Positions 34,409 to 62,886 of a DNA stretch of 64,000 nt are shown in pieces; positions within the stretch are counted from its first letter, which is position 1, and every line of letters begins with the position of its first letter. The notes beneath the pieces are model-generated. The model saw only the letters and a list, made by a program, of their open reading frames with translations. It did no database searches and had not been told where the DNA came from. This DNA is from the human T2T-CHM13v2.0 reference genome, Homo sapiens. The stretch lies in the NCBI RefSeq assembly GCF_009914755.1, contig NC_060926.1; one strand, written 5' to 3'. The position numbers and the translations under genes were made by a program.

Positions 34409-35195
34409 TGCAGTAATCTGCTCAGGCTGCCATAAGAAAATACCACAGGCTAGTGGCTTAAACAGAAATTTCTCACGAGGTGGGCATGGTGGCTCACAAC
34501 TGCCATCCCAGCAACTCAGGATCCTGAGGTGGGAGGATTGCTTAAGCCCAGGAGTTTGAGGCTGCAGTGAGCTATTTCAGCCTGGGAAATAGAGAACCAT
34601 CCCAATAAGAAGAAAGAAAAGAAAAAGAGAGAGAAAGAAAGAGAGGGAGGGAGAAAGAAACAGAAAGAAAGAGAAAGGAAGAAAGAGAAAAGAAGGAAAG
34701 GAAAGGGGAAAGGAAAACAGAAAGGGAAGGGAAAGGGAAAGGGAAAGAGAAAGAGAAAGAGAAAGAGAAAGAGAAAGAGAGAAAGGGAAAGAGAAAGAGA
34801 AAGAGAAAGAGAAAGAATTTATTTCTCACATTTCTGGATGCTAGGAAGTCCAAGATCAAGGTGCCAGCCAGGTAGGATTCATTTTAAGCCCTCTTTTCTT
34901 GGCTCATGGGAGGCCACCATCTCACAATGTGCCCATATAACCTCTTCTTTATGCAGACGCAAGGAGGCAAGGGCAGGGAGGGGAAGAGAGAGAGTGCACG
35001 CATGGAAGGGAGAGAACACTTTTGTGTCTGTTCTTATAAAGACACAAATCCTATTGGATCAGGACCCAACCCTTGTGACCTCAGTAATCTTAATTACTTC
35101 CTTAGAGGTCCATCTCCAAATGCAGCCACTCTAGGGGATAGGAATTCAACATAAGAATTTGGAGGTGGGGGGACACAAACATTCAGTCCATAACA
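34409..35195 (-). mobile_element. MLT1A-like LTR with an inserted Alu monomer (34479-34605) and GA-rich tail (34606-34816)
   Basis: The MLT1 sequence is split at AGAAATTTCTCAC / GAATTTATTTCTCAC around the insert. Confidence 0.8.
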
Positions 35196-37160: not shown

Positions 37161-38551
37161 GAAACAACATGGCATTGAGCAGAAGACACTGTAGCTGAGG
37201 AATTACATCTGTTTCTAAATTATATAATGACATATTTGAACCCAGATAAAAGGAGGGAAAAATATGACTCAGAGAACAAATTGCCATGAAGTCAACTTTT
37301 CAATCTGAGTTTGTTCATATCTTTTCTGCTTCTGTACAAGTGATTAATGCACTCTATATCTCAAAATTCAGTGGTGAAAATGAATACTGACTTAACATTG
37401 GCAAGAATCAAGAAACTCCATTTGGGATCCCATCAGAAAAAGAAAGACATATATTTCAGGGCCTTCTGAAGACCTGGTCTGTTTTCTAAGATAATTTAAA
37501 CTGTCACTTACAAAGTTGTATATAACAAAAATAAATTTGAAGGATGTCTGCCCATTTCTCAAAGCCAAGCTCCACTCCCTTCCCTATAAATTTTTTTCTA
37601 ATGTGTGCTTATATCAATATTAACTCATTTCACAACTGCCTATGCCATACCCAATAGTCCTTTGTTATATATTTACTTTTCTATTTGAGAATAATAAAGT
37701 TAGAAAGTAAGAGATCAGTTATACAAACTCACCATAAATGAGCACATTAAGTATATGTTAAGATATAACATTATTTTCTCTGAGAGAGAGAGAGAGAGGG
37801 ACTACCAAATCACCATACCTTGAACAAGATAGAGATGAATGTTCCTTTCCCGTAACAGTTCAAGGTAAGCAGCAAGGGCAGGTGAGCTGACTCTACCATC
37901 TCAACCTATAACTTCCCTCTCACAGTCAAAGTGACTTCTTCAATTCTTATTATCTTCCAATGAGCAGAAAGGCAGAAAAGGACTATGGGATCTGAGCACA
38001 ACCCTCTGTGAGAGCAAAAACAGTCCTGAAGAGGTACATATTTATCTGCTCACACCCCATTGGCTAGACCATACTTCAGTGGCACATATGGTTGCAAGAC
38101 AGTCCAAGAAATGCAGTCATAATCTAGAAAGTCATGCATCCAGCTAAAATTCTGTCACCAAGAATAAGTGGTAAGTAGATACTGTGGGACAAACAGCATT
38201 ATGTCACTCTCTAAATACATGAAATTTATGAGGACTAAATCCTGACATATTCTTGACTCCTTAAATTTGCAAATACCTCTCTCCCATATAATATATACCT
38301 TAAAATGCACATTGAACAAGAGATAATCACAGAATTGCACTGACATTGTGGTGCTAGGCTCAGCTGGCCCAGCCCTTTCCACAAAGGAGTGGTTAGCTAT
38401 TTTCCATGTCTGCCTCACAGACTGTGATTTAACTTCATGCTTTGGAAAATGGTGTGTTAGTAGCTGGCCATGTGCCTTCAACTTGCTTAGGAATATTTGA
38501 AACTATGTAAGCGGATCAGTGCCTGATCCCAACTGTTCATTGGATCAAATG

Positions 38552-38555
<4 letters not shown>

Positions 38556-38588
<33 letters not shown>
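38556..38588 (+). repeat. (CA)n microsatellite
   Basis: Direct reading. Confidence 0.95.
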
Positions 38589-38589
<1 letters not shown>

Positions 38590-39051
38590 CATTCCTGAAC
38601 AGTCTGACTTAATGGATCTGTAGCAGGGTCATGGCATCCCTTGTTGTAAAACTTGCACAGGTGATTCTAATGTATAACCAGAGTTGGGAACCACTGAGCT
38701 AAGACATTCAAACTCCACGTTGGCTGTGGGAGACATCAAAAAGCATTGGGCATGTCTCCTGGCTTCAAAAATATTTTAAACTGATTCATTGTCCATATCA
38801 CATAATTCGTACTTTATTATATATTCTAATCCTCTAGTGTAACTTATGTCTAGACTATAACTTTGAGAATTAAACAAGAAACATGAATTGACTGTCATCT
38901 TTGTACCTGGCACTTTCAGGGTATGACAACTTTTACATAGGAAAGCGTCAAGGTTCCTTCTCTCAAGGCACCCTAGTCTAGCAGATAGAAAGAAAACTCC
39001 ACAGGATCTAGTCTGTTAAGCTCTAAGCAATCAATCAATAATTGCATATAA

Positions 39052-39337
<286 letters not shown>

Positions 39338-39340
39338 TCA

Positions 39341-39670
<330 letters not shown>

Positions 39671-39877
39671 ATTTTAGTCCCATATGTTAGTGAAGGTGTC
39701 CTAGGTTCTTGGTGCAAAAAGTAAAAGAATATACATTCAACTCTGTGTGGATCAGAAACCCAAATCAAGAATGGCTTAAACCAGGTAGAAATGTGCTCAT
39801 CACATGTACAAGGAGGCAGGGCCCAGGGCTGTGGTGGCACTCCACATGGGAGTACCATTCATCTTTTTCTCCATCTC

Positions 39878-41613
39878 TCTGGTTATAGCATTGAGTATGC
39901 AAGGTCCAAACATTATCACAAGGCACACGGGAAAAAGAGGTCCTAGTAGAGAGCTAACCAGGTCCAAAACAAAGACTAGAATCCATTAAAAAGGGATTGT
40001 AGCCAACTGAGTTTGCATTTTCACCTAATTTGTCAATGATTCTAATTGAGTCTTTAAGCACTCATAAATTCTCCTCTACCTAACTGGAGGTGTTGATCCA
40101 GAAACAGCATGTTTCATTTACAAATGCACAAGCGCCCCTTACTTCAGCCATAAGGACATCAAGAGTTTGTCTATTTTGCATGGCCACTGAGGCCAGAGAA
40201 TTTATGGGCTGCTCTTGGGCTTTTATGGCTCCTACAGTTACCTTTCACCCTTGTTACATCATGATAGAAATATTAAGCACTGATCTTTCAAGAAGGGGAA
40301 CACCGCCAAGCCAAAATAGGCCTCTGGCTATTGCATATTTTATTCCGTTTTTCTAATATAGGATTGCCATGTGCATATTCTTGCCAGTTCTCTCTCTTTC
40401 ATTTTAATCTCCATATGATGGCATAGAGATAAGTGATCTCCTGTTTTGGTATGTGTGATGGAATGCACTTTCTGTAAAAGAGCCCAAATTGGCGATGTCA
40501 CCCAACAATGCTACCCTGTCAGTGGGGTTTAAAAATAACAAATTGGGGACCATTGCCACTATAGTGCATGTTCCTCTCCAGCGCCTGGGGAGGAATAAGC
40601 ATAGCCTGGAGCCACAGAGAAAGTAAAGCCCTGTTCCCTGAAGGGATGGTTCTATGTTGTGATTTATGAGGGTTCCAGCTAAGTTTAGTCCAGGCCTTAT
40701 AAGGTTGCCTTCCCTACATCTAATTCAAGCATCTTTAGAATAAGGATATCCATACTTAGTATAGTCATCCACAGTATTGTTTGGAACTTTACATGCTGGG
40801 AGGGAAGAATCTTTTTGGCAAATATAGTTTTGAAAGATCAGAGACGCAATATGTTCCAGCCAGTATCTTAGACAACCCTCCTTACAGCGGCTATTGGCCC
40901 AGACATCCCCTGTTCATTCACAAATCTGCAGATCACTGTCATTATCAAATATCATACAAGGGTCCAGGATTCCATGTGTGGGCATGTTTGGGAAGGACCA
41001 TGTGCTATTTATTACCTGATAATAAGGTTGGCGAGGGGTGGCATTTCTGCCCGGGGTAGACATTCCCATTGGGAACTCCACCTGGGAGGTCTGGCTAGAT
41101 TGTTAAAATTTTTCCACAGTCTCTCCCAATGTTTGGTGTCACCCTTGTTCCTTCTTAGTCTCCAGATCTCTGTGCTCTCAGCAATTACAAGCATACTGTT
41201 GCAATTATTTAAGGTTTCCCGAGTATGGTCCTTTTCCTTTACTCTTAAAGCAGAGACAGGCATTGGCTATCATTCTATCAACTTCACCTAGTCTAAGGGT
41301 GTGAGTTTTACCATCAGGAGGTGTGTCTTTCTGGGTGGAGTTAAAAATGCTCCCATACCATGTTCCCTTTATACCTATTAGGTCCTTAATGATTTAAGGT
41401 AAAGCCATCAGAGGGAAACCCTAAGATAGTGAGTTCTGAATCATCAAAGAGTCCATTGGTGTTATTAAACTGAGTAAATTGTTCAGGGCAAACCCAGTAA
41501 TCAGTCTTGTTGTAGAGATCGGTAATATCTGATATTGTAGGAGCCAAAGAATGTGAGGCATTGCTACATCTAACAGTGAATGCTAGTAAACTTGATAGTA
41601 ACAAAATCTTCAT
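39878..41613 (-). pseudogene. ERV env pseudogene, truncated after the transmembrane anchor
   Basis: Signal-peptide-like MKILLLSSLLAFTVRCS; degenerate CXXC (YWVC); ISD-like MQNRQTLDVLMAEVRG; CX6CC CAFVNETCC (40130-40104); anchor LGPLFPVCLVIMFGPCILN. Confidence 0.88.
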
Positions 41614-42006
41614 GTTTATCTCTTGCCTGTGACTACTATCCCTGCTATATGAATAATAACTAAGCAAAAGATTATGGCAATTGAGACTCTTTTCCCAATA
41701 TTCCACTTAGAAGGTGCCACAGTATGCAGTCCTACTGCAAAGAGCAAGGTGAGTACAACAATTCCCATATGTGTGAAGTAATAAAGTTCCACTTTAAATC
41801 TTACTCACCGAGATATATAATTTCTTCGTGGGGGTGGTTTATGAGGTTATGAATGGAATCCCATGGATAATCAAAATCTCCCTGTAAGTATGTGACAAAG
41901 AGAAGTTCTAATATCTAACAGCAAATCTCAAGAGGAAAGGTAGAAATGACTTTAGTATCTGGTAAGGAAGGGTGGGATTGAACTGAACAGAGAGTTCCCA
42001 CTCATT

Positions 42007-45000
42007 TACTTATCTTTTGGATTTTCAGTTTGAAATCCCCAGACTTTTCACACTGATATCTGAGATGTTCTTCTGGGATGTCAGGGGTCATTCCAGGCCT
42101 TGACTCGAGTGTGATGAATCCAAGATTCCAGTCCCACAAACTTCACTGCCGAGCAGGTGGAGAGAAGGATGGTATAAGGTTCCTCCCAGCTGGGACCTAG
42201 AGAGGGGAAAAGAGAGGAAAAATCCTTCACCAGTACCAAGTCTCCTTGGTAGAACAGAGGTGGCCCTAGTTCTTGGGGTTGGAATTCTGATAACTGTTTT
42301 AATTCCTGCTAGAACTGGGCCAGGGAGGTTACATGTTTAACCAATTCAGAAGTTCTCTGATGTAATATAAAATCATTGGTAAGGAAAGGCCGTCCATATA
42401 CCATTTCAAAAGGGTGAAGGAACACCCCTTCAACCCCAAATTTGAAGGGGTGCTCCTCACCTGCACTAAGGCTATAGGAAGATAAGCAGTTTAGAGGAGG
42501 TGAGTTTCTTGAGACCACTTCCTGAGGTGTCTCTTAATGATATCATTTGTTTTCTCCACCTTCCCTGAAGACTGCAGTCTTCAAGCACAATGAAGATGGT
42601 ATTGTATGCTCAGTGCTTTTGAGACCCCTTGGGTAACAGCTGCCTTAAATGAGGGGCCATTGTCACTTTGGAGGTATTTAGGGAGTCCAAAACGAGGAAT
42701 TATTTCATTGACTAATGCTTTTATCACCTTAGAGGACTTTCTGTTTGACATAGAAATGCCTCTACCCAGCTAGTGAAGGCATCCACCCACAACAAGAGGT
42801 GCTGAATTCCCCTTATCTTTGGAAAATGGGTAAAATCCATTTGCCAGTCCTCCCCTGGGCAGTTTCCCATTCTTTGTGTTGCTGGGGATGGGGAGATGCC
42901 ATTTGTTGAGGGGATTGTTTTTGAGGCAGATCTTATAAGCATTAACAATTTGTTTGACTGTTTTTGGTAGATATTTACCTGAGAACAACCTCTGGGCTAT
43001 TTGATGAGTTTTATTCTTTCCCAAGTGAAAAGTTTGGTGAAGGATCTTAAGAACTTTCCACTGACTGGAGACTGACAAATAACATTTGCCATCCTCTGAT
43101 TGTAACCATCCTGAGGGCTGAAAAGTGTATCCTCGAGAGGTGGCCCATTCTATCTCTGCAGGAGAATACTGAGGCTTTATTTCCCTTATGGAGCCCTCCC
43201 AAATTAGACAGCCTTCAAGTGTGCTGGGACTTTGGGGTCTTCTTACTGCTGACTTAGCTGTTTGGTCTGCTAGCCTATTTCCTTCAGCTATTTCATCCAT
43301 CCCCTTCTGGTGTCCTTTGCAATGTATCATTGCCACTTCCTGCAGAAGGAAAACTGAGGACAACAATCTATTTCCTAATGGTATTTAATAAAAGAGCCAT
43401 TAGCAGTCAGGGAGTGTCTTTCTTTCCAAATAGCGGCATGAGCATGAAGAACCAGGAAAGCATACTTAGAATCCATATATATGTTAACTGCCTTAGCTTT
43501 GCTTAGTTCAAGCACCCTCATGACAGCAATTAACTCAGCTAATTGAGCACTGTACCTGGTGAAAGAGGTGTGCTTTTAATGATGTCATCCAGGGTGACTA
43601 TTGCATACCCTGCCCTACAGGTTCCTTGTTCTATAATAGAACTTTACCTGTAAAGACAGCCCAGTCTCAGTTTTCTAGAGGAGTTTCCTGGATGTCCTCT
43701 CTGGCTGCATAGGTTTGCATCACTATTTTTTCACAATCATGTTCAGGTTCTCCAATTTCATCTGGAAGGAAAGTGGCTGAGTTCAGGAAAGGACAGGCCT
43801 TTAACTGAACTGCAGATCCCTCCAGCAGCAAAACTTAATATTTGAGGAGGCGATTATCTGTTAGCCAGAGACTTCCTTTAGAGGATAACAGTCCCTTTAC
43901 ATTATAGGGGGTGTAAACAATCAGGTCATTCCTCATGCTCAACTTAGTCACTTCTGGCACCAGCAAAGCCACCACTGCAACTGTTCAGAGGCAAGCTGGC
44001 CATCCTTTAGCCATCAAGTCAAGTTCCTTGCTTAGGTTACTGGATGGCTGCTGGGCTGGGCCTCAGGCCTGAGTTAAGACTCCCAAAGCTATCCCCTTCC
44101 TTTCTGAGATGTGCAGATTAAATGCCCTCCCTATGGAAAGACTGAGGGTTGATGCTTTAAGTAAAGCTTGCTTTAGCTGTTTAAATGCCTTCTGAGCCTT
44201 AGGTTCCCAGATCAGGGAGTGAGTTTTAGCTATTGAGTTTCTTTTATAAGGTGATATGAAGGGTGAACTATTTCACTGTACCCAGGTATCCACAATCTGC
44301 AAAAAACCCCAAAATCCTCTTAGCTGTTTGAGGGTTTTGGGAAGGGGGAAGGAGGAAAGAGGCTGAATCCTCTTCTCATCTAATGTGCTGGTTCCTTCTG
44401 ATAAGACTAGACCTAGGTACCTTACCGAAGTTTGACAGAGCTGAACTTTAGATTTGGAAATTTTATATCCACTACCTGCTAGAAAATTAAGAAGAGCCTC
44501 AGTGCATTTTTGAGAAAGTCCCTCAGTTGGGACACAGAGGGGAATATCATCTACTTATTGTAAAACTTTAATCTGAGGATGAGAGAATTCAGAGAGGTGT
44601 TTTGATAATGCTTGCCCAAACAAGTGGGGGCTGTCTCTGAATCCCTGAGGCAGTACTGTCCAAGTCAACTTGGTAGCCTGATTGGAGGGATCCTCTAAAG
44701 CAAACAAGTATTGGGAGGTGCAATAGCATGCAGAAAAAGACTTCCTTTAGGTCCCACACTGTGAACCATTTATTTCCCTCAGGCATTTGAGTTAGCAAAG
44801 TATTAGGATTACAAACCACTGGATGGATTGGAATTACAGCTTCATTAATGAGATGGAGGTCCTGAACTAGTATCCATTCCCCACTGGGTTTCTGTACCCC
44901 TAATAGTGGAGTGTTACAAGGGTTGTTGCAAGGTCCAAGAAGGTCCTATGCCTTTAAATTATTAATGATGGCTTAAAGTCCTTGAGGGGGTACTGCATTA

Positions 45001-45492
45001 GGGGGTACTGCTTCTAGTTAGGGAAGGAGGTGGGATCCTTAAGGTGAATCTGGACCAGGATAGCAGTTGCAGCCTGACCAATTTTCCTGTGACTTGCCCA
45101 CACCTCTGGGCTAATATTGATTTCTACTAAGGGGAGACAAAGAATCTGTCCTGGAACCGTAAGGATGGTGGCTCCCATATGGGCTAGAATATCTCTAGTA
45201 AAAGACTGGGATGCTCAGGCATGATTAAAAAGGCATGAGTAAATAGCAATTCCCCCCTACTACAACCGAGGGGCTATGAAAAATATTGGGTTAAAGACTT
45301 TCCTTAGACATTCACCATGGTTGTGATATGGGAGGAGAGAAGGTCAGGACTGGAGAGGAGAACAGAGAGGCTGGCTCTGGTGTCCAGAAGGAAGTCTACC
45401 TTTCTCCTTTCTACGTCCAGAATCAACCAGGGATCCTGGATAGTAATGGCAGTTCGAGTTGCTGGAGCCAAGAAATTGAGCCCTAGGACCCA
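42007..45492 (-). pseudogene. ERV pro-pol pseudogene
   Basis: Protease VDFLLDTRA (~45380, DTG mutated); RT TVLPQGFRDSP (~44640) and *VDD (44557-44546); RNase H HCKGHQKG...GNRLAD; integrase EDWQMDFTH. Confidence 0.92.
42088..42196 (-). CDS. CMPK2: ERV-derived alternative terminal coding exon of CMPK2 (SQLGGTLYHPSLHLLGSEVCGTGILDSSHSSQGLE*)
   Basis: Acceptor TTTTTCCTCTCTTTTCCCCTCTCTAG|G lies in the integrase 3' region. Joined to a phase-2 CMPK2 donor it gives 35 open codons to TGA at 42090-42088. Consistent with my recollection of a 366-aa CMPK2 isoform. Confidence 0.7.
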
Positions 45493-46886
45493 TTAGTCCT
45501 GCTGGACCATCTGGGAGACTGGCTCTGGACCTAGCAACCTATATCTCCAGGGACAGTTTGACTTCCAGTTGTCTCCACCACAGGGTGGACAGGGTTGAGG
45601 TGGCTTCTTCTTGCTGTCTGGGCAACCCCTTTTAAGTGCCCCAGTTTGCCACAGTGGTAGTGATTAGCAAATGCACCTGGGGGATTCTGGATTTTATAGG
45701 CCTCTAATGTGACCAGTAGAGCCTCTGTTTTTTCTCATATTTCCTCTTCTTCTCCTGGGCTTCCTCCTGGACTCTATTGTAAAAGACCAAAGTAGCCACT
45801 TTCAAGAGGTTCTCTAGAGTACTATCTGGACCTATGGCCAGTTTCTGCAACTTCCTTTTGATATCGGGGCTGCCTGGGTAATAAACTTGTCTTTTAAGAT
45901 TAGCTTTCCGTCAACTGAATCAGGAGATAGGGAGATATGTTTCACTAATGCCTCTCTCAGCCTTTCTATAAACGCTGAGAAATTTTCATCTGGTTTTTGA
46001 TCTATCATGGACAACTTACAATAATTAAGAGGTTTGGTACTTGTCCTTCTCAAGCCTTCCAGTATGCACATCCAAAAGTGTTTTCTATTCAACTCATCTA
46101 TGGGATCATTGGCATTCCAACTGGGATTTTCAAGGAATACTGCCTCCCTCCCTATTGGTAATAGAGATTCTGCCACTTGTTCACCTTCTTTTTCTCTTTT
46201 GCTCTCCCTTCTTTTAGACTTCTTATCTTCCAGACTTTTAGACTGGCTATAGGAGATACATTGTTCATCTCTGAATGTTTCTGCTTCCTGTTAGGTTTTG
46301 GCTTAAAAGTAGCATAGCATCTCTCCATGTAAGATAAAACACTTACGTTAAATTTTGGAAAGACTCTATACATCTATTAGGGTCATCAGAGAACCTGTCC
46401 AAAGTTGGGAATTCCTTAAGTGGCACAACCAGAGGAACTAATGATTTGGCTATTGGGAGCCCTGAATAAGTGAGGCAGGTAGGGCACCCAGAAGTTGCAT
46501 TTGAGGATTCCCCAAAGGGTTTGACTCTCTGATTTTGGGGAAGTATCTTTTGTAGCCTTGTCTGACATGGCTGCCAAGAGTGTGGGGTCAACTGTACAAT
46601 GCTTACAAAGATTTGGGTTGTCTCGCAGGGCAAAGAAAGCTTGTATATAGTAAACCTTGGACCATTTACCCTCCTGCCTACAGAAAATATCTAGTTGTTG
46701 AATAGTATATAAAAAAAGACTTCCCTCAGAAAGCCAGGTTTTTTCATCCCCAAGATGGTAAAAAGGCCATGTCCTTGTACAATAGAATATGAGCCATTTT
46801 ATCATCAGAACCTCAGCATCAAAGGAGTTCCAGTGATTCAGAATGCACTCGAGGAGATTACAGACTGCAGATGGTTTGTTACCCAT
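45493..46886 (-). pseudogene. ERV gag pseudogene
   Basis: HERV-W/9-like MA start MGNKPSAVCNLLECILNHW; capsid/MHR segment DQKPDENFSAFIERLREAL; two degenerate zinc knuckles (..HCGKLGH.. and CPPCGGDNWKSNC); ends QQD-TAA. Frameshifted. Confidence 0.9.
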
Positions 46887-48383
46887 CTAATAAGAGATGG
46901 GAGACAAGGCATCCCTCAGTCCCCTTCCTCCTCTCTGCGTTACCCAGGGTGGAGGGAAAGAGAGAAAAGGCATTCCTCTTCTCCTTCCTTCTCTCCTCTG
47001 GGTCCCTGCAGCCATCATAGGTGCCGCCCCATGGATGCAAGCATATCCTTCACCCATGGATCCAGAGGAGCCAGTAGGGCAGGACTAGTCATGCTCACCT
47101 GCATAAGGCTCTAGCTTTCTGCCCTGCTGGATTCCTAGACCCACTCAACCCAAAAGGCTCCCAAAGTACCCTAAGAGGCCTAGGAGAGATTCTGTAGTAG
47201 TTGGGTTTGGGCAAGACTCTTTAATGCAGGGAATGTCCTAATACCATCTGTGGCTTCCCTTGCTATAGCCCCAGTGAAAAATCAGAATTCCACAGAATGG
47301 GACTGATTAACTTCCAAACATAAAATTCCTTTTTTAAAAAATCCCATTGTAGTTGAATGCAGAACAGGTGCCTCAAATGAGCATAAGAATTGAATGGCTG
47401 CCATTCCTTTGATGGGGAGAGTATTGAAGCTAAGATTTGTCTTATCAGGATGGCTACCTCCCAGCTGTTGAAAGTGGAGATTTTTTTTGTTGTTTGGTCT
47501 ACAAATAGGACATGGGCTCTGATCACTGATAGAGGAACGTAAAAGGGAAAAGAATTGGGAAACAAGGAGTTTGGGGCAGAGGGATGATAAGGCTCCCCAG
47601 GGAGAAAAATTCCTTTCCACTAGGTGGCATTGTAGGGTTAGAAATGTTAGGTAAAAACTCTGACTCCAAATTCTTTTCAGGCAAAAGTTAGAAAGAGAGA
47701 TTTGGGGTTTGATAGGTTGCCCCCATAGCAAGCCCAGACCGTAAGAAAATTAACTTCTCTCATAAAAGAACTGTTTAAATTCACTGGACAATGCTGAGCT
47801 ATTATATGGAGGAAAAAAACAACCCAAAAGGAGACGAGGATATTCACTCGGGGTGAAAGATCCTCCCATATGGTGCCATGAATGTCTATTATTGAGGGAT
47901 AGAAAGGCCCTTACTAGGTGAAAATTTAGACTGAAGTCTTGAATTCCCTGTTTCCAGGAAATCACAAAAACAACAACTCTTTGAATTACATTCTTGATTA
48001 TTAAGATACCAACTAACTCTACTCCGCAAGATTATATCCCTAGGTTACAAAAACACCCACAACATTGCATAGAAAGAAGAGGTTGGAGACATGATAGCCA
48101 CAAGAAGAAAGAAGGAAAATGCAATAGGAAAAGATTGCAAGTCTTTGTGCTGACTCCCTGATGGGCTGTAGGGGACTGGAGTTAGTCCAAGGGCCTTCAG
48201 ATAACACTGAGGGGGTAGCCCCAGCCAGAAACCTTCAGTTGCCCTGGGACCTTCCAATCCCACATGATGGCTAGGCCCTCTGTGAAAGCAAACTAGACTG
48301 GAATAGACAAGAAGCCTCAGAAATGCAAGTAAAGGTGAAAGTTAAAGGTCAACTCTTAATCATCCTTCTGATGAATTCCCTTC

Positions 48384-48401
48384 TTCCCAGCCAATGCACC
48401 A
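48384..48401 (-). promoter_or_regulatory. Primer-binding site complementary to tRNA-Gly
   Basis: TGGTGCATTGGCTGGGAA versus TGGTGCATTGGCCGGGAA, the complement of the tRNA-Gly 3' end plus CCA: 17/18 match. Confidence 0.85.
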
Positions 48402-48433
48402 AAATGTGTTGTAATCTTACCAATGCACCAAGA

Positions 48434-49182
48434 TGTAACAGTCTCCCGTTGTCTGAGATAATATCCAGAGTTCTTTGTCCTAATTCCAAGAAGATTAAGG
48501 AGTGCAGACAACAAGGGTGAAGTTGGAGTGAAACTTTAATAAGCGAAAAAAGAAAGCTCTCTGCCAGCAGAAGGGGGAGCTCTAATGGGGTGCCCACTAT
48601 GAGGCCAGTTGTGGGGGTTTTACGGGCTGGAAAGGGGAATGAATGTGCTTAGTCTACCGGCTGTCTTGGAGAAGGCATGACTCAGCTTGGCCAGGCACCC
48701 TGGCCCAGGACCAATCAGAAAGCCTGGCCTAGGACCTTTGCCTGGGACCAATCAGGGGCTGAAGTTATGATTCACAGAGGCCAGACTCACAGTCCAAAAA
48801 CTGGCAAGGAAAGTGCCCACTGGAACTAACTGGAGCCCACTGTGCCCACGCCCACAAAAGGAGAAAAAAACTTTTTCCTGGGAGCCTGCTGACTATACAA
48901 AGGACAAAGGTGTTTTTATGCCAGGACTTGTTCCCTCATCTGAGTGAGCCAGAGGTTTGTGCAAGCTTTTATCTGAATGGGCCAGAGGCTCTCCTATCTG
49001 TGCAGCCGTAGGCATGTCTCCAGGCACAACACCCTGTGCTAGTTCCCTTATCAGTGCCTGCAGCTTGATTTTTTCCCCAGGCTGCTTTTTACATTATGTG
49101 GGGTGAGGCACTGACTGGTGGGCCGAGGGCTCTCTGGGGACCCTTCCCTTGCTATTTACCTAAGGCAAGCTAATTCCTTTTA
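48434..49182 (-). mobile_element. 5' LTR (~750 bp, LTR27/MER61-like)
   Basis: The minus strand begins TAAAAGGAATTAGCTTGCCTTAGG and ends GACTGTTACA directly before the PBS. It contains two CCAAT boxes (48711, 48748), AP-1 TGACTCA (48678-48684) and ATTAAA (48540-48535). Confidence 0.8.
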
Positions 49183-49834
49183 GTGTCATCCTCATCTCTT
49201 GGTCCTTAGATGGCTATCACCTCTGAATACAGCCGATATGAAGAGTTAAAGGGGAAAGTGATAATATCCCCTTGACATTTCAGGTATTCCTTCTGCTCAC
49301 ATACTATTGGCAAGAAACTAGCCAGTCGCCCACCTCCAGCTGTTAAGGGAGCCTTGGAAATGCACTAGGAATTATTGGCACCCATGTACCAAGCTAAATA
49401 TTACATTACCATGGAAGAAAGGAAGAATAAATTTTGGGGTAACTAATGGTCTATCACAGGAACAAAACCAAAGCTCGTCTTGCAATGAGCAGAGCCAAGC
49501 AAAGGGTTACTTGCCATCAGTTTTAGGGTAGGAGGTGCTATTTTACAAAATACTCGTAAGTCATATATACCTATCAGTATATAAAAAGTCCAGGTGTAAA
49601 AAGAATGAATTACAAAATGTCTTTAATATTTGTAATGAGGAAATGATATGTAAAATAAAACAATAGCCCTCCCCTTTCTCTGAAAGCACTCTGACCACAA
49701 ATTCCACTTAGCCTGCCAGCTCACACCTTTCAACTTCCTTTACCAAAATTTCCCTCCTTTACATCACAATATTAAAAGGGGAATCTGAGAAAGCACTTTT
49801 CAGACAAATCAATATGTACCCAGGATGACAGCAT

Positions 49835-51367
49835 AGATTAGTAAACCACAGCAAAGTTTATTCATGTGCCAGGGACATAAAGATACATTAATTGTTTGTT
49901 TTTCTAGGCTGCCAGTATAAGCTTTTCAAAATGTTTAAAGTAAATAAAACCAATAATACAGCTAGATACCACATTGCAAAGAACCCTAATGCTATTTATC
50001 AGCTTTAAAATACTTTCAACTGAAATCAATTACATTTTAATATACACATATTATATAGAAATTACCTATAGCTCTTTTAAAAATCCTATGACATTAACAT
50101 GAAACTTTATTAGAATTTAAGATTCTATATGCAGACCTGATAAAGCCTTAAATTTAATTATTTTGGAGTAATGTCTTCTTAAGAAATGGTAGATAGGATA
50201 AAATAATTTACAGATTTATCTGCCTTTGAACTGGAAGGAATTTTAGGTAATCACCTGGTTCAACCTACTCCCTAAAGTCACACAGCTCTATAATTTCCCC
50301 CTCACTCAGCTACTTTTTTCTGTCTAAAGATATGTCAAAGCGATTTCATATGTAATCATGAGACATTCAAGTGCAAGATAATTTACCAAGAAATCCCACT
50401 CCAAGATCCACTGTACTTATTTAACAAGACAAATTAAGTTTGTGTAATGAAAATACACAACAAACATTGCATTTAGCGTTTTGACTCCACTTTTAATTAA
50501 TGAATCATAGCTCCTATGCTGAGGAAACATATTATGTATAGATTAATATAAATAAATTACTGGATTGGCTAAATGAAATGCATCCAGTTCAATGGAAAAT
50601 GTGCATTCTATTCAGAGCCATACTTTAGAAAAAAAGAAAAGAAATATAAATAAGCAAAATATAATTCAGAGAAGGTTGGTATATTTGCAGTTGGAGCATC
50701 TTGGCTTGAATGTCTTTATATATGACTCAGAAGCCTATCAAAAGGGCTCTGAGCCTCAGACACAAGATCAATGCCTTCTTTGTAAGTGTTCCTTACCCAA
50801 AAATGGCTCTGCAGGAGTGTCCTTGGGCAGCCAGGACACATAGACAGCCTCTGCAGGAACACTTGGCTCTAGAATTTGGGACTGAGGGAGATGCAGCGAG
50901 CCCATCATGACGAGTGCAACCAGATGTGGAAGAAGCCAATGTGGGCATGTCACGATCTCATCAGCATGCCAGTGTAGGAGAAGCAGAGGCTCCGGGGTCT
51001 CCCTGCTGATCTGGAAGATCTTGTCTGCTGCTTCTGTACACCTGGTGCTGTCTGAGTAAGACAGGTCTTCCAGATATTTGGTAGTGATTAAGTGAAACAT
51101 ATGTTCCAAGAAAATGTTTACTATGCCAGGAAGAAAGCAATCGCTGGCCTCTCACTGGAACATGATGAGAGGGACCTTTGTGATGACGGGTCCATCAGTC
51201 AGAAGAGGGTACGATGGCTGAAGTAAAATTAAGATGCCTGGTCTCCAGTTTTCTGCCACACAACATGCTTGTAGAACAGAAATTTGGGAACACTGCATAA
51301 CAAATGGTGGATGTAGATGTTTCAAACAACATCTAATCTAGTTAGACGTGGCACCTGGCCAGAGTAA
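49835..51367 (-). other. CMPK2: CMPK2 3'UTR (~1.5 kb)
   Basis: Follows the stop codon and is AU-rich in its distal half. AATAAA on the minus strand at 50111-50106 and 49862-49857. The exact cleavage site is inferred. Confidence 0.8.
49857..49862 (-). terminator. Main CMPK2 polyadenylation signal AATAAA
   Basis: tttatt on the + strand, ~1.5 kb after the stop, with GT/T-rich sequence downstream on the minus strand. Confidence 0.7.
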
Positions 51368-51491: not shown

Positions 51492-52967
51492 CTGGGGACA
51501 GGCAAAACACAAAGAGTTGGTCTACTTTTTCACACAGCTATTTGCATTAATGTTCTTTTCCTACCATAGTATAAATAGCTTGAAGCAAGCTTCCCATGTC
51601 ATTTATCTCACTGTAACTAGCTTTGCCCACAGAAGACGTTCATGCATTTTGTTTAACAAATAATAAATGAATAATAATGTTTAATAGCTAGCACTTGTTG
51701 AATACCTGTTTTCTGCCAAGCATTAGCATTTTGCATGATTTTTCTCATTTAATTCTCAAAGTAACCTTAGGAGGGAAGACTATTGTCATCCCTGTTTTGC
51801 AGAGAAGGCAACTGAAGCTCAAAGAATTTAGGTAATTTGTTCAGTGGCAAATTTCCCCCAAGTCTGTGCCCTGAATAATTTTCATACAAGCCACAGTCCT
51901 TAATATATGCATGGGACTCTTCTAATATTTTGCCAGAAATCTACATATCCTTTCCATGCTAGCTAGCCTTCATGTGTATACAGAGTGACTAGTGCCTGTT
52001 TCTTTATGGAATCCTTATAGCACTGTGGTTAAAATAGGGGTGTCGAGGTGGATCGTCTGCATTCACAACTCTGCCTGACCACTTCCTAGCCAAGTGAATT
52101 GGTCAAATCTCTTCTCCTCTCTGTGTCTCAGTTTCCTGTTCTGCAAAATGAAGACTGAAACCGTACCTTCCTTGCAAATGTTCACTGAAGTTTAATGGAA
52201 TTAATACAAGTAAATTGCTTAACATAATATCTTTACCCACAGCAGCTACCATTATTTATAACATTACTATGTTATGATAACAGGGCTATCATTGTTCAGT
52301 TAGAGAAAATATTTCTGCTTCAGTTTTTAAAGGCAGTGGTGTAGAACTGATTCATACTCAGTCATGAGGCAGGAGGCCTGGCCAGACTCTCTTCTGCAGT
52401 CGTGTTTATAACTTTCTAATTAAAACAAAAACACTGGCTGCAAAATCAGAAAGATTTTAATCCCGGTTTTACTAGTGAATAGTTATGTACATTTAGACAA
52501 ATCACTTAATCCTTTGAGCCTTAAAGTTGTAAACTGTAAAATACGGCTAATGTTTTCCTCACAAGGATGACATAACATCAGTAAAATGCCTGACACACGG
52601 GAAGCATCTAATAGGTAGATGTTACTATGAGCTCGTTATCTAGTGCTCTGTGTGATTATACTATGACTGGGGAAACTGAGGCACAGAGACACTTACTGTC
52701 TTACCCAGGTGCAGCTGCTCCTAGCACAGCCAGGATCAGTGGCAGGGTCTGATCCCTAGTCCGATGACCTTTGCTTTAAGATAACAATGCTGCAGCCCTG
52801 TGGTGACAAGCCCATTGGAAGGGGCTGAAGTAACTTAGAGGATGTTGTCTCTTGTGTTTGAAAACTGGAAACAATATCACTTCCTCACAATCCTAAAGCC
52901 AGTGCCAGTGGTTCATCTCCCTTCAGGAATGCCTGCCGCTCACATTGCATTGCACTGGGACACCTAC

Positions 52968-53201
52968 TTTTGACGAAACACACTGTTGGCCTCAAGTTCT
53001 GCTTCTTCCCTGGTCTTCTCCATGCCCCGGCCCTGCAGCCTCTGCAACCTCTCCTCAGGACTCACAGTGAGCAGCAGGATAAGGTCAGGTTTGAGCAGGT
53101 CCTCTGGCCACTGGTACACAGGGTGATGGGCTGGGGGCAGGTGCTGGAGACCCCCACTCACCTCAGTGGCTATGGCATAGGTGGCCGTGCTGTGCCAGTA
53201 C
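52968..53201 (-). CDS. CMPK2: CMPK2 coding exon 4 (234 bp)
   Basis: CTCAG|G acceptor, then YWHSTATYAIATEVSGG...EANSVFRQ, then AA|GTAGGT donor. The phase matches the previous exon (AG|G = Arg of the DRY motif). Confidence 0.97.
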
Positions 53202-62684: not shown

Positions 62685-62886
62685 CTGTCTACAATCACAG
62701 GAGATTTGGCAGATTCTTTAGCTATTTCGGAGGCCACAATATAATTGCCCAAAGAGTAAAAAGCTCTTCTAATGATAGTTGGTTCATCATCAAAGATCTT
62801 CCTCCACTGGCCAATGCAAGAGGGTGGTGACTTTAAGAGGACAGCCTTAAGTGAATCTGCCACTGACTGGGTCACCGTGGTTTTAC
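62685..62886 (-). CDS. CMPK2: CMPK2 internal coding exon (exon 3, 202 bp): end of P-loop and thymidylate-kinase-like domain
   Basis: Translates (G)KTTVTQSVADSLKAVLLKSPPSCIGQWRKIFDDEPTIIRRAFYSLGNYIVASEIAKESAKSPVIVDR. Acceptor CCTGCAG|GT and donor AG|GTAGGT on the minus strand. Matches the human CMPK2 protein as I recall it. Confidence 0.97.

What the first reader, a model, noticed from the sequence alone, without database searches (positions are those of the whole stretch)
42088..42225. Proviral env splice acceptor captured by CMPK2, giving a retrovirus-derived C-terminus
Seen: a 23-nt pure pyrimidine tract plus AG (TTTTTCCTCTCTTTTCCCCTCTCTAG|G, first exon base 42196) in the integrase 3' region, sense to CMPK2. 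The donors of exons 3 and 4 are both phase 2. Either splice reads into an alternative frame of pol, SQLGGTLYHPSLHLLGSEVCGTGILDSSHSSQGLE*. Established: gamma-like ERVs such as HERV-W place their env acceptor at this position. CMPK2 is an interferon-stimulated kinase linked to viperin/RSAD2 ddhCTP synthesis and to mtDNA/NLRP3 signalling. Inference: exon 3 spliced to the ERV cuts the kinase at DR|Y and removes the lid and C-terminal region. The result would be a primate-specific, probably inactive isoform that also swaps the 3'UTR, and could act as a brake on an antiviral enzyme. I recall a 366-aa isoform of matching length. I do not know that its ERV origin has been described.
Basis: partly seen in the sequence, partly recalled or inferred. 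Interest (0 to 1): 0.8.

Follow-up and report, generated by a model that had tools for sequence, protein, structure and literature searches.

The report
ERV-derived alternative last exon of CMPK2
An already-annotated alternative last exon of the interferon-induced kinase gene CMPK2 is built from the integrase region of an old endogenous retrovirus and uses a splice signal the virus itself carried; it would cut the kinase short, but nothing yet shows that the product matters.

Summary
That base is the first of a RefSeq-annotated alternative CMPK2 exon (42071-42196, hub table). The exon lies inside the MLV-type integrase C-terminal domain of a sense-oriented, degraded gamma-type provirus. The provirus has a 5' LTR, a tRNA-Gly-type PBS, a long pre-gag leader, gag, pol and env, but no 3' LTR. 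It starts about 0.65 kb past CMPK2's canonical poly(A) site. The exon is read +1 relative to pol and gives the 35-residue tail quoted. From exon 3 this makes 366 aa, cut right after D330-R331.

The acceptor is inherited from the virus. In 28 related copies the tract is 97% pyrimidine, and 25 of 28 have an AG within 3 nt. Substitutions inside it keep pyrimidines far more often than elsewhere. It is probably the ancestral env acceptor, though that is not proven.

The claim of a "brake on an antiviral enzyme" is untested. The annotated 3' end has no poly(A) signal. NRIR exon 1 starts 89 nt downstream in the same provirus and has an inherited donor. I found no paper describing this. It is a new member of a known kind (transposon exonization), of moderate interest.

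The parts
42199..42222 (-). 24-nt uninterrupted polypyrimidine tract of the acceptor
   Evidence: In 28 related copies these columns are 97% pyrimidine, against 35-79% in flanking windows. 91% of substitutions keep a pyrimidine, against 63% at other pyrimidine columns.
42197..42198 (-). Acceptor AG (TAG|G)
   Evidence: AG is in the same aligned column in 7 of 28 relatives and within 3 nt in 25 of 28.
42071..42196 (-). Alternative CMPK2 exon as annotated in RefSeq
   Evidence: Hub annotation table. No AATAAA or ATTAAA in it or downstream until 41013; a weak AGTAAA lies at 42010.
42088..42196 (-). Coding part of the exon: last base of codon 331 (or 409), 35 new codons and a TGA stop
   Evidence: ORF 42088..42336. 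No Pfam family for this frame (protein 15).
42096..42254 (-). Integrase C-terminal domain (MLVIN_C) in the pol frame; the acceptor sits in its middle
   Evidence: protein 1: residues 19-71 of ORF 42081..42308, E 2.4e-10, 40.4 bits (cut-off 29.2).
42081..42083 (-). End of the last open stretch of the pol frame (stop codon)
   Evidence: ORF 42081..42308.
62685..62886 (-). CMPK2 exon 3; ends ...V I V D330 R331(AG|), phase-2 donor
   Evidence: hub table; numbering cross-checked with D330.
52968..53201 (-). CMPK2 exon 4; phase-2 donor; carries thymidylate-kinase profile positions 107-149 of 185
48405..49189 (-). 5' LTR of the provirus (edges within about 15 nt)
   Evidence: most matches span query 678-1445 of 48250-49850(-), a few start at 663; 348 first-look candidates. 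A TG lies near 49189 and a CA at 48406-48405.
48384..48401 (-). Primer-binding site, tRNA-Gly type (17 of 18)
   Evidence: 4 of 4 checked loci carrying the tRNA-form 15-mer are tRNA-Gly genes.
46887..48383 (-). Long pre-gag leader; acceptor-like site directly before the gag ATG
   Evidence: homology with other copies across the whole 47100-48400 query; site at 46887, 17 of 20 pyrimidines.
42081..46886 (-). Degraded gag-pro-pol with many stops and frame changes
   Evidence: Gag_p30, RVT_1, RNase_H, Integrase_H2C2, rve (two pieces), MLVIN_C.
39878..41800 (-). Degraded env; the TM part reaches almost the end of the profile
   Evidence: TLV_coat positions 441-489 (40080-40244) and 526-557 of 560 (39800-39985). 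Homology with other copies stops near 39880.
41807..41982 (-). NRIR exon 1 (41809-41982) and its GT donor, inside the same provirus between pol and env
   Evidence: Hub table; (the only GTRAGT downstream of the acceptor); GT kept in 10 of the 16 relatives that cover it.

Best explanation
A gamma-type endogenous retrovirus sits in the same orientation as CMPK2. Its 5' LTR starts about 0.65 kb beyond the gene's normal poly(A) site. The virus brought a very strong 3' splice site in the last part of pol (integrase C-terminal domain). This is most likely the acceptor it once used for its env mRNA.

When RNA polymerase runs past the normal CMPK2 end, the phase-2 donor of exon 3 (or exon 4) can pair with this viral acceptor. 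The retroviral sequence is then read one base out of the pol frame. That gives 35 unrelated residues and a stop.

From exon 3 the product is 366 aa. It keeps the mitochondrial signal, the N-terminal domain, and the kinase domain up to D330-R331. It loses residues 332-449, so it should have no kinase activity.

Shown: the position, frame, viral origin and inheritance of the signal. Inferred: that it was the env acceptor, that read-through feeds it, and that the protein is made. I think it is most likely a low-level by-product of a strong inherited splice site rather than a selected regulator.
For: - The exon and first base match RefSeq (hub table).
- MLVIN_C covers 42254-42096 in the pol frame.
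- The whole provirus is on the same strand: Gag_p30, RVT_1, RNase_H, Integrase_H2C2, rve; TLV_coat; 5' LTR; tRNA-Gly-type PBS.
- The canonical CMPK2 end has AATAAA near 49860 and the LTR starts near 49189.
- It is the only one of 349 YAG sites in the provirus with 20 of 20 pyrimidines upstream, and it is stronger than CMPK2's own acceptors.
- Of 29 relatives fetched, 28 cover the tract. It is 97% pyrimidine in them, with an AG within 3 nt in 25 of 28.
- Tract identity (0.70) is no higher than in the flanks (0.75). Yet 91% of substitutions in it keep a pyrimidine, against 63% elsewhere (odds ratio 5.7). So composition, not sequence, is conserved.
- It lies 116 nt before the pol stop and upstream of env, where simple retroviruses place the env acceptor (textbook knowledge, recalled). 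HERV-W has such an acceptor, AS2 (passages).
- D330 numbering and the 449 aa length come. Exon 4 holds the kinase-profile part.
Against: - No expression data could be examined, so use, abundance and the donor actually used (exon 3 or 4) rest on the RefSeq row alone.
- The annotated 3' end has no canonical poly(A) signal, so the mRNA as modelled may not exist in that form.
- None of the 39 related matches begins at the acceptor, so there is no retro-copied spliced env RNA to prove viral use.
- No strict branch-point consensus lies upstream.
- The related copies share ancestry, so the statistics overstate independence.
- A 35-codon open stretch in an off-frame is not unusual; my own estimate is about a 1 in 5 chance.
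Confidence: 0.7

Rival explanations
1. The acceptor mainly feeds a CMPK2-NRIR run-on RNA. Transcripts entering at 42196 do not end at 42071. They continue through NRIR exon 1 to the inherited donor at 41808 and splice on to NRIR exons 2-4. The 366-aa reading frame would then sit far upstream of the last junction, so the RNA would be non-coding or a target of nonsense-mediated decay. Part of NRIR would be made from the CMPK2 promoter.
For: - There is no AATAAA or ATTAAA from the acceptor down to 41013.
- The annotated exon ends 17 nt after the stop, and the NRIR start (41982) is only 89 nt further on (hub table).
- The only GTRAGT downstream of the acceptor is NRIR's own donor.
- That donor is also inherited from the virus: GT is kept in 10 of the 16 relatives that cover it, and 4 carry an identical GGTGAGTAA.
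- NRIR and CMPK2 are induced together. The NRIR paper found an ISRE only about 4 kb upstream of the NRIR start. My strict ISRE scan found none in 38000-50500.
Against: - RefSeq keeps the two as separate genes (hub table).
- The NRIR paper's methods describe RACE for characterising the RNA's sequence and treat it as its own transcript; the passages I saw report only the 3' RACE result.
- No transcript data were seen here.
Confidence: 0.25
2. One reading: the ERV-tailed isoform is a selected, primate-specific, inactive form that restrains CMPK2 (a brake on an antiviral enzyme).
For: - The truncation removes the part of the kinase fold encoded by exons 4 and 5 while keeping the targeting signal and N-terminal domain.
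- A transposon-made truncated decoy is documented for IFNAR2 (passages).
Against: - There is no evidence of selection on the 35-residue tail, which matches no family.
- Kinase-dead D330A and the N-terminal domain alone still restrict Zika virus. Loss of the kinase therefore does not make the protein inert or antagonistic.
- The transcript model lacks a poly(A) signal.
- No paper found mentions such an isoform: 'isoform' occurs 0 times in the main CMPK2 domain paper.
Confidence: 0.1
3. The pyrimidine tract is only a feature of the integrase coding sequence of this ERV group and was never a viral splice site. CMPK2 uses it by accident.
For: - The tract lies inside the MLVIN_C-coding stretch.
- All relatives share ancestry, so shared features need no function.
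- No spliced retro-copies were seen: 0 of 39 related matches start at the acceptor.
Against: - Exact sequence in the tract is less conserved than in the flanks, while pyrimidine content is almost perfectly kept. Coding constraint does not predict this.
- An AG follows within 3 nt in 25 of 28 relatives.
- The position fits an env acceptor, upstream of env and near the pol end.
Confidence: 0.15

Closest known systems
IFNAR2-S: truncated interferon receptor made by an exonized Alu terminal exon (preprint PMC10515820; passages seen)
   Same: A primate transposon supplies the splice site and an alternative last coding exon of an interferon-pathway gene. The result is a C-terminally truncated protein.
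   Different: Here the donor element is the internal pol sequence of a sense-oriented provirus beyond the gene's normal end, not an intronic Alu. No function has been shown. No poly(A) signal accompanies the exon. CMPK2's only row in that study's held supplement text is a different, L2c-overlapping exon.
Retroviral env mRNA splicing, for example the ERVWE1 (HERV-W) donor with acceptor AS2 giving the 3.1-kb syncytin-1 mRNA (PMC2853125; passages seen)
   Same: The acceptor lies in the 3' part of pol upstream of env. The provirus has a long pre-gag leader, as HERV-W, HERV-9 and HERV-30 do, and an acceptor-like site just before gag.
   Different: The PBS is tRNA-Gly type, not the tRNA-Trp type that names HERV-W (recalled). 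The closest copies are only 69-79% identical. Here the acceptor is paired with a host gene's donor, and the downstream sequence is read as protein in a non-viral frame.
NRIR / lncRNA-CMPK2 (PMC4176326; passages seen)
   Same: It lies in the same provirus, on the same strand, 89 nt downstream. Its first exon and donor are also viral sequence (hub table).
   Different: It is annotated as a separate non-coding gene. The paper does not mention a retroviral origin ('retrovir' occurs 0 times).
HUERSP3_2p25.2, a catalogued HERV locus strongly induced by four arboviruses in astrocytes (PMC9694637, table seen)
   Same: It is a class I HERV locus in what I recall to be CMPK2's cytoband, and it is induced under antiviral conditions, as expected for a provirus fed by CMPK2 read-through.
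   Different: No coordinates were seen, so identity with this provirus is not confirmed. The second locus there, MER101_2p25.2, is listed with RSAD2 as nearest gene.

Membership tests
Gamma-type (class I) ERV provirus | gag, pol (RT, RNase H, integrase) and env domains of the MLV type, in order on one strand | tested here: met
   Gag_p30, RVT_1, RNase_H, Integrase_H2C2, rve and MLVIN_C; TLV_coat twice. All are on the minus strand, in order, and all are interrupted by stops and frame changes.
Gamma-type (class I) ERV provirus | LTR at both ends, and a PBS next to the 5' LTR | tested here: inconclusive
   A 5' LTR of about 785 nt with many solo copies is present, and a PBS matching tRNA-Gly in 17 of 18 positions. 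No 3' LTR exists. There is no internal match. Env homology ends near 39880. The stretch 37600-39100 is essentially unique.
Retroviral env splice acceptor | Pyrimidine tract plus AG in the 3' part of pol, upstream of the env start | tested here: met
   The AG is 116 nt before the pol-frame stop. Env domains lie downstream. It is the strongest acceptor-like site in the provirus.
Retroviral env splice acceptor | Conserved among related viruses as a splicing signal | tested here: met
   The tract is 97% pyrimidine in 28 relatives, with an AG within 3 nt in 25 of 28. Substitutions preserve pyrimidines.
Retroviral env splice acceptor | Joined to the viral leader donor in env mRNA | not testable with these tools
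   No transcript data were available. 0 of 39 related matches start at the acceptor. The primary HERV-W paper is not held.
HERV-W | tRNA-Trp-type PBS (nomenclature, recalled) and close similarity to HERV-W copies | tested here: not met
   The PBS complements the tRNA-Gly 3' end. The best relatives are 79% identical or less. Family names of those relatives are unknown to me.
Transposon-exonization alternative terminal exon | The splice site and exon lie in a transposon and are present in an annotated transcript | tested here: met
   plus the hub RefSeq row.
Transposon-exonization alternative terminal exon | Its own poly(A) signal defines the new 3' end | tested here: not met
   No AATAAA or ATTAAA between 42196 and 41013; only a weak AGTAAA at 42010.
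Transposon-exonization alternative terminal exon | The isoform is expressed and translated | not testable with these tools
   No RNA-seq or proteome search was possible. One proteome table lists only the canonical accession (only the first 300,000 characters are held).

The most novel reading that the evidence does not exclude
The provirus behind CMPK2 works as a splice cassette that ties an antiviral gene to its own negative regulator. Its inherited env-type acceptor (42197) and the inherited donor (41808) form a 388-nt viral exon. Through this exon, interferon-driven CMPK2 read-through transcripts are converted into NRIR-type RNA. NRIR output would then be set partly by how often CMPK2 transcription ignores its poly(A) site, for example during infections that impair 3'-end processing. 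The 366-aa reading frame would be a side product of the same event.
Probability: 0.2. Interest if true: 0.65.

Novelty: new member of a known kind. Interest (0 to 1): 0.35.

Why it matters
CMPK2 supplies CTP for viperin's antiviral nucleotide and also has a kinase-independent antiviral N-terminal domain. An isoform that keeps the N-terminal domain and loses the kinase would separate these two activities in primates only. That isoform is created by a retrovirus's own env splice signal.

The same provirus also supplies the first exon and donor of NRIR, a reported negative regulator of interferon-stimulated genes. One old infection may therefore have reshaped both outputs of this locus.

The practical value is modest. 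It gives precise junctions to count, and one acceptor whose deletion would test both ideas.

Tried and rejected
- LTR pair: the repeat finder and two blastn runs found no second LTR. The one weak hit (61% over 149 nt) lies outside the LTR. No LTR-divergence dating was therefore possible.
- First PBS guess: I first placed the PBS near 47272. One search showed that internal homology runs on to about 48307-48400, so I dropped it.
- ISRE: a strict ISRE pattern and the GAAANNGAAA core found nothing on either strand in 38000-50500, apart from one poor A-rich match.
- Branch point: no yTnAy motif within 73 nt upstream.
- Spliced retro-copies: none seen among the 39 related matches.
- Family name: only the catalogue label HUERSP3_2p25.2 was found, without coordinates. 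That paper's supplement held no mention of the locus label, CMPK2 or NRIR. The HERV classification tables could not be opened because the cap on papers was reached. The primary HERV-W paper is not held.
- Literature on an ERV origin of the exon: 10 searches, with passages read in 15 papers. None describes it. Searches gave nothing relevant. Supplements of bioRxiv-only records and any cut parts of long files were not seen and could hold a row for this exon.
Full report
**1. The observation**

On the minus strand the sequence reads ...GGA, then 24 pyrimidines, then AG|GTCCCAGCTGG. A script places the tract at 42222-42199 and the AG at 42198-42197. The first exon base, 42196, matches the hub's RefSeq row for an exon of another CMPK2 transcript, 42071-42196.

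Exon 3 ends GTA GAC AG|gtaggt at 62685. Exon 4 ends CAA AA|gtaggt at 52968. Both leave two bases of a codon. Joined to 42196, either gives R (or K) followed by SQLGGTLYHPSLHLLGSEVCGTGILDSSHSSQGLE and a TGA at 42090-42088. This is the end of the stop-to-stop ORF 42088..42336 listed.

The site is unusual:
- Y20-AG occurs twice in the window, against 0.13 expected; 2 of 100 shuffles reached two.
- Of 349 YAG sites on the provirus's coding strand, it alone has 20 of 20 pyrimidines upstream.
- CMPK2's own exon 3, 4 and 5 acceptors have 12, 17 and 16 of 20.

**2. What surrounds it**

The minus strand from about 49189 to about 39878 is a degraded gamma-type provirus. Pfam finds the following:
- Gag_p30 (ORF 45832-46290)
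- RVT_1 (44273-44554)
- RNase_H (43375-43575)
- Integrase_H2C2 (42770-43384)
- the rve core in two pieces (42581-42996)
- MLVIN_C at residues 19-71 of ORF 42081-42308 (E 2.4e-10)

Env is confirmed by TLV_coat positions 441-489 (40080-40244) and 526-557 of 560 (39800-39985). Every gene is broken by stops and frame changes.

The acceptor lies in the middle of the MLVIN_C-coding stretch, 116 nt before the stop that closes the pol frame (42083-42081). The CMPK2 frame is one base off the pol frame and matches no family (protein 15).

**3. Edges of the provirus**

Searching the window's own genome with 48250-49850(-) gave many matches confined to query 678-1445, a few from 663. There were 348 first-look candidates, of which 40 were scored. 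This marks a 5' LTR of about 785 nt, from the TG near 49189 to the CA at 48406-48405.

Three bases later an 18-nt stretch (48401-48384) begins. Its complement, in its tRNA form, is the 3' end of tRNA-Gly genes: 4 of the 12 fetched loci were scanned, and all 4 held a tRNA-Gly gene ending at the motif. With the CCA complement, the PBS fits tRNA-Gly in 17 of 18 positions. Several relatives carry the same form.

Homology with other copies then runs through a leader of about 1.5 kb to the gag ATG at 46886. HERV-W, HERV-9 and HERV-30 are described as having such a 'pre-gag' (passages). An acceptor-like site sits just before the gag ATG (46887).

On the other side:
- Env homology ends near 39880.
- Two stretches follow that are masked in the hub table (39097-39341 and 39365-39676). 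They match Alu-type repeats elsewhere in the window.
- The stretch 37600-39100 is essentially unique in the genome.
- No second LTR was found.

The provirus therefore lacks its 3' LTR, and LTR dating is impossible.

CMPK2's canonical 3' end (49834, hub table) has a consensus AATAAA about 25 nt upstream. It lies about 0.65 kb before the LTR.

**4. Is the acceptor viral?**

A 431-nt query around the exon found 39 related places at 69-79% identity, besides itself. I compared the 29 that were given loci with the window, pair by pair and without building any consensus.
- 28 of 29 cover the tract; one (L018) has it largely deleted.
- In those 28, the 24 tract columns are 97% pyrimidine (663 bases). 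Four flanking 24-column windows are 35%, 43%, 60% and 79%.
- An AG is in the same column in 7 of 28, and within 3 nt in 25 of 28. Most have TAAG, one base further on.

Base identity to the window is no higher in the tract (0.70) than in other pyrimidine columns (0.75). Yet 183 of 202 substitutions in the tract (91%) keep a pyrimidine, against 841 of 1341 (63%) elsewhere (odds ratio 5.7, Fisher p about 3e-17). The copies are related, so the p-value overstates independence, but the direction is clear. What is kept is composition, not sequence. A polypyrimidine tract behaves this way and a coding constraint does not.

Simple retroviruses place their env acceptor in the 3' part of pol (textbook knowledge, recalled; HERV-W has an env acceptor AS2). 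Together with the position of this site, I conclude that it was probably the env acceptor of this virus.

This is not proven:
- None of the 39 related matches starts at the acceptor, as a retro-copied spliced RNA would.
- No strict branch-point motif lies upstream.
- I could not see where HERV-W's AS2 lies (paper not held).

**5. What the splice does to CMPK2**

CMPK2 is 449 aa. It has a mitochondrial signal (1-22), an N-terminal domain (23-201) and a kinase domain (202-449). D330A is catalytically dead (passages).

From the hub's coding coordinates, exons 3, 4 and 5 carry 202, 234 and 124 coding bases. Exons 1-3 therefore make 330 codons plus 2 bases. The Asp in ...VIVD R| is thus D330, which agrees with the paper.
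- Exon 3 to the ERV exon gives 331 + 35 = 366 aa.
- Exon 4 to the ERV exon gives 409 + 35 = 444 aa.
- Which one RefSeq models, I cannot see.

Exon 4 alone matches Thymidylate_kin positions 107-149 of 185 (E 4e-7). The 366-aa form therefore loses that part of the fold and everything after it, and should have no kinase activity.

The same paper shows that D330A and the fragment 1-201 still restrict Zika virus when mitochondrial. 'Inactive' is thus true at most for the kinase. 'Brake' has no support yet.

**6. A weakness in the annotated model, and a rival**

The exon ends 17 nt after its stop. No AATAAA or ATTAAA occurs from the acceptor down to 41013; only a weak AGTAAA lies at 42010. NRIR's annotated start (41982) is 89 nt beyond the exon's end. 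The only consensus donor downstream of the acceptor is NRIR exon 1's GTGAGT at 41808.

That donor is also inherited. 16 of 29 relatives cover it, 10 of the 16 keep GT, and 4 carry an identical GGTGAGTAA.

The provirus therefore offers an acceptor-donor pair bounding a 388-nt exon (42196-41809). CMPK2 read-through RNA could pass into NRIR through it. I rate this at about one in four, and it is not exclusive of the main reading.

The NRIR paper reports an ISRE only about 4 kb upstream of the NRIR start and never mentions a retrovirus ('retrovir' occurs 0 times). My ISRE scan of 38000-50500 found none.

**7. What is known**

The exon is in RefSeq, so the splice is known. Ten literature searches and passages from 15 papers turned up no description of its retroviral origin or of a 366-aa isoform.

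The large catalogue of transposon exonization in immune genes does not mention CMPK2 in its text. In its held supplement text it lists only one CMPK2 row: an L2c-overlapping exon at hg38 chr2:6,866,426-6,866,511. Being LINE-derived, that is a different exon. Cut files and closed supplements could hide a row for this one.

A catalogued locus, HUERSP3_2p25.2, is strongly induced by four arboviruses (log2 fold change 7.4-9.8). It may be this provirus, but no coordinates were seen.

By its PBS the element is not HERV-W.

**8. Verdict**

- The acceptor is inherited from the virus and is probably the env acceptor.
- The provirus is defined. It has a tRNA-Gly-type PBS and lacks its 3' LTR.
- The cut falls exactly after D330-R331.

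The functional part is untested and somewhat weakened by the missing poly(A) signal and by the kinase-independent activity of CMPK2. This is a further example of transposon exonization in an interferon-stimulated gene. Its most interesting open point is the link to NRIR.

Noticed in passing
window 41807-41982 (-): NRIR exon 1 and its GTGAGT donor lie inside the same provirus, between the pol end and env. The donor motif recurs in related copies: GT is kept in 10 of the 16 that cover it. The NRIR paper does not mention a retroviral origin.
   Followed up: partly
window 48384-48401 (-): The primer-binding site fits the 3' end of tRNA-Gly in 17 of 18 positions. Several related copies share it. 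I know of no commonly named HERV group defined by a glycine PBS (recalled).
   Followed up: partly
window 46887-46889 (-): An acceptor-like site (17 of 20 pyrimidines, TAG) lies directly before the gag ATG, at the end of the 1.5-kb leader. It resembles the pre-gag intron acceptor described for HERV-W.
   Followed up: no
window 52961-52969 (-): The other alternative CMPK2 exon in the hub table (52168-53201) is exon 4 run on into its intron. The frame reads one more codon (K) and then TAG, so that transcript would encode 409 aa ending ...RQK.
   Followed up: partly
window 39097-39880: Env homology stops near 39880, almost at the end of the env profile. It is followed directly by two masked stretches that match Alu-type repeats, and the 3' LTR is absent. 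How it was lost is unknown.
   Followed up: partly
window 34587-34829 (+): A long purine-rich (GA/GAAA-type) low-complexity array abuts NRIR exon 2 (34830-34946) on its downstream side.
   Followed up: no
window 37780-37801 (-): The only other Y20-AG in the window is a TC-dinucleotide run followed by CAG. It lies outside the provirus, in the first NRIR intron.
   Followed up: no
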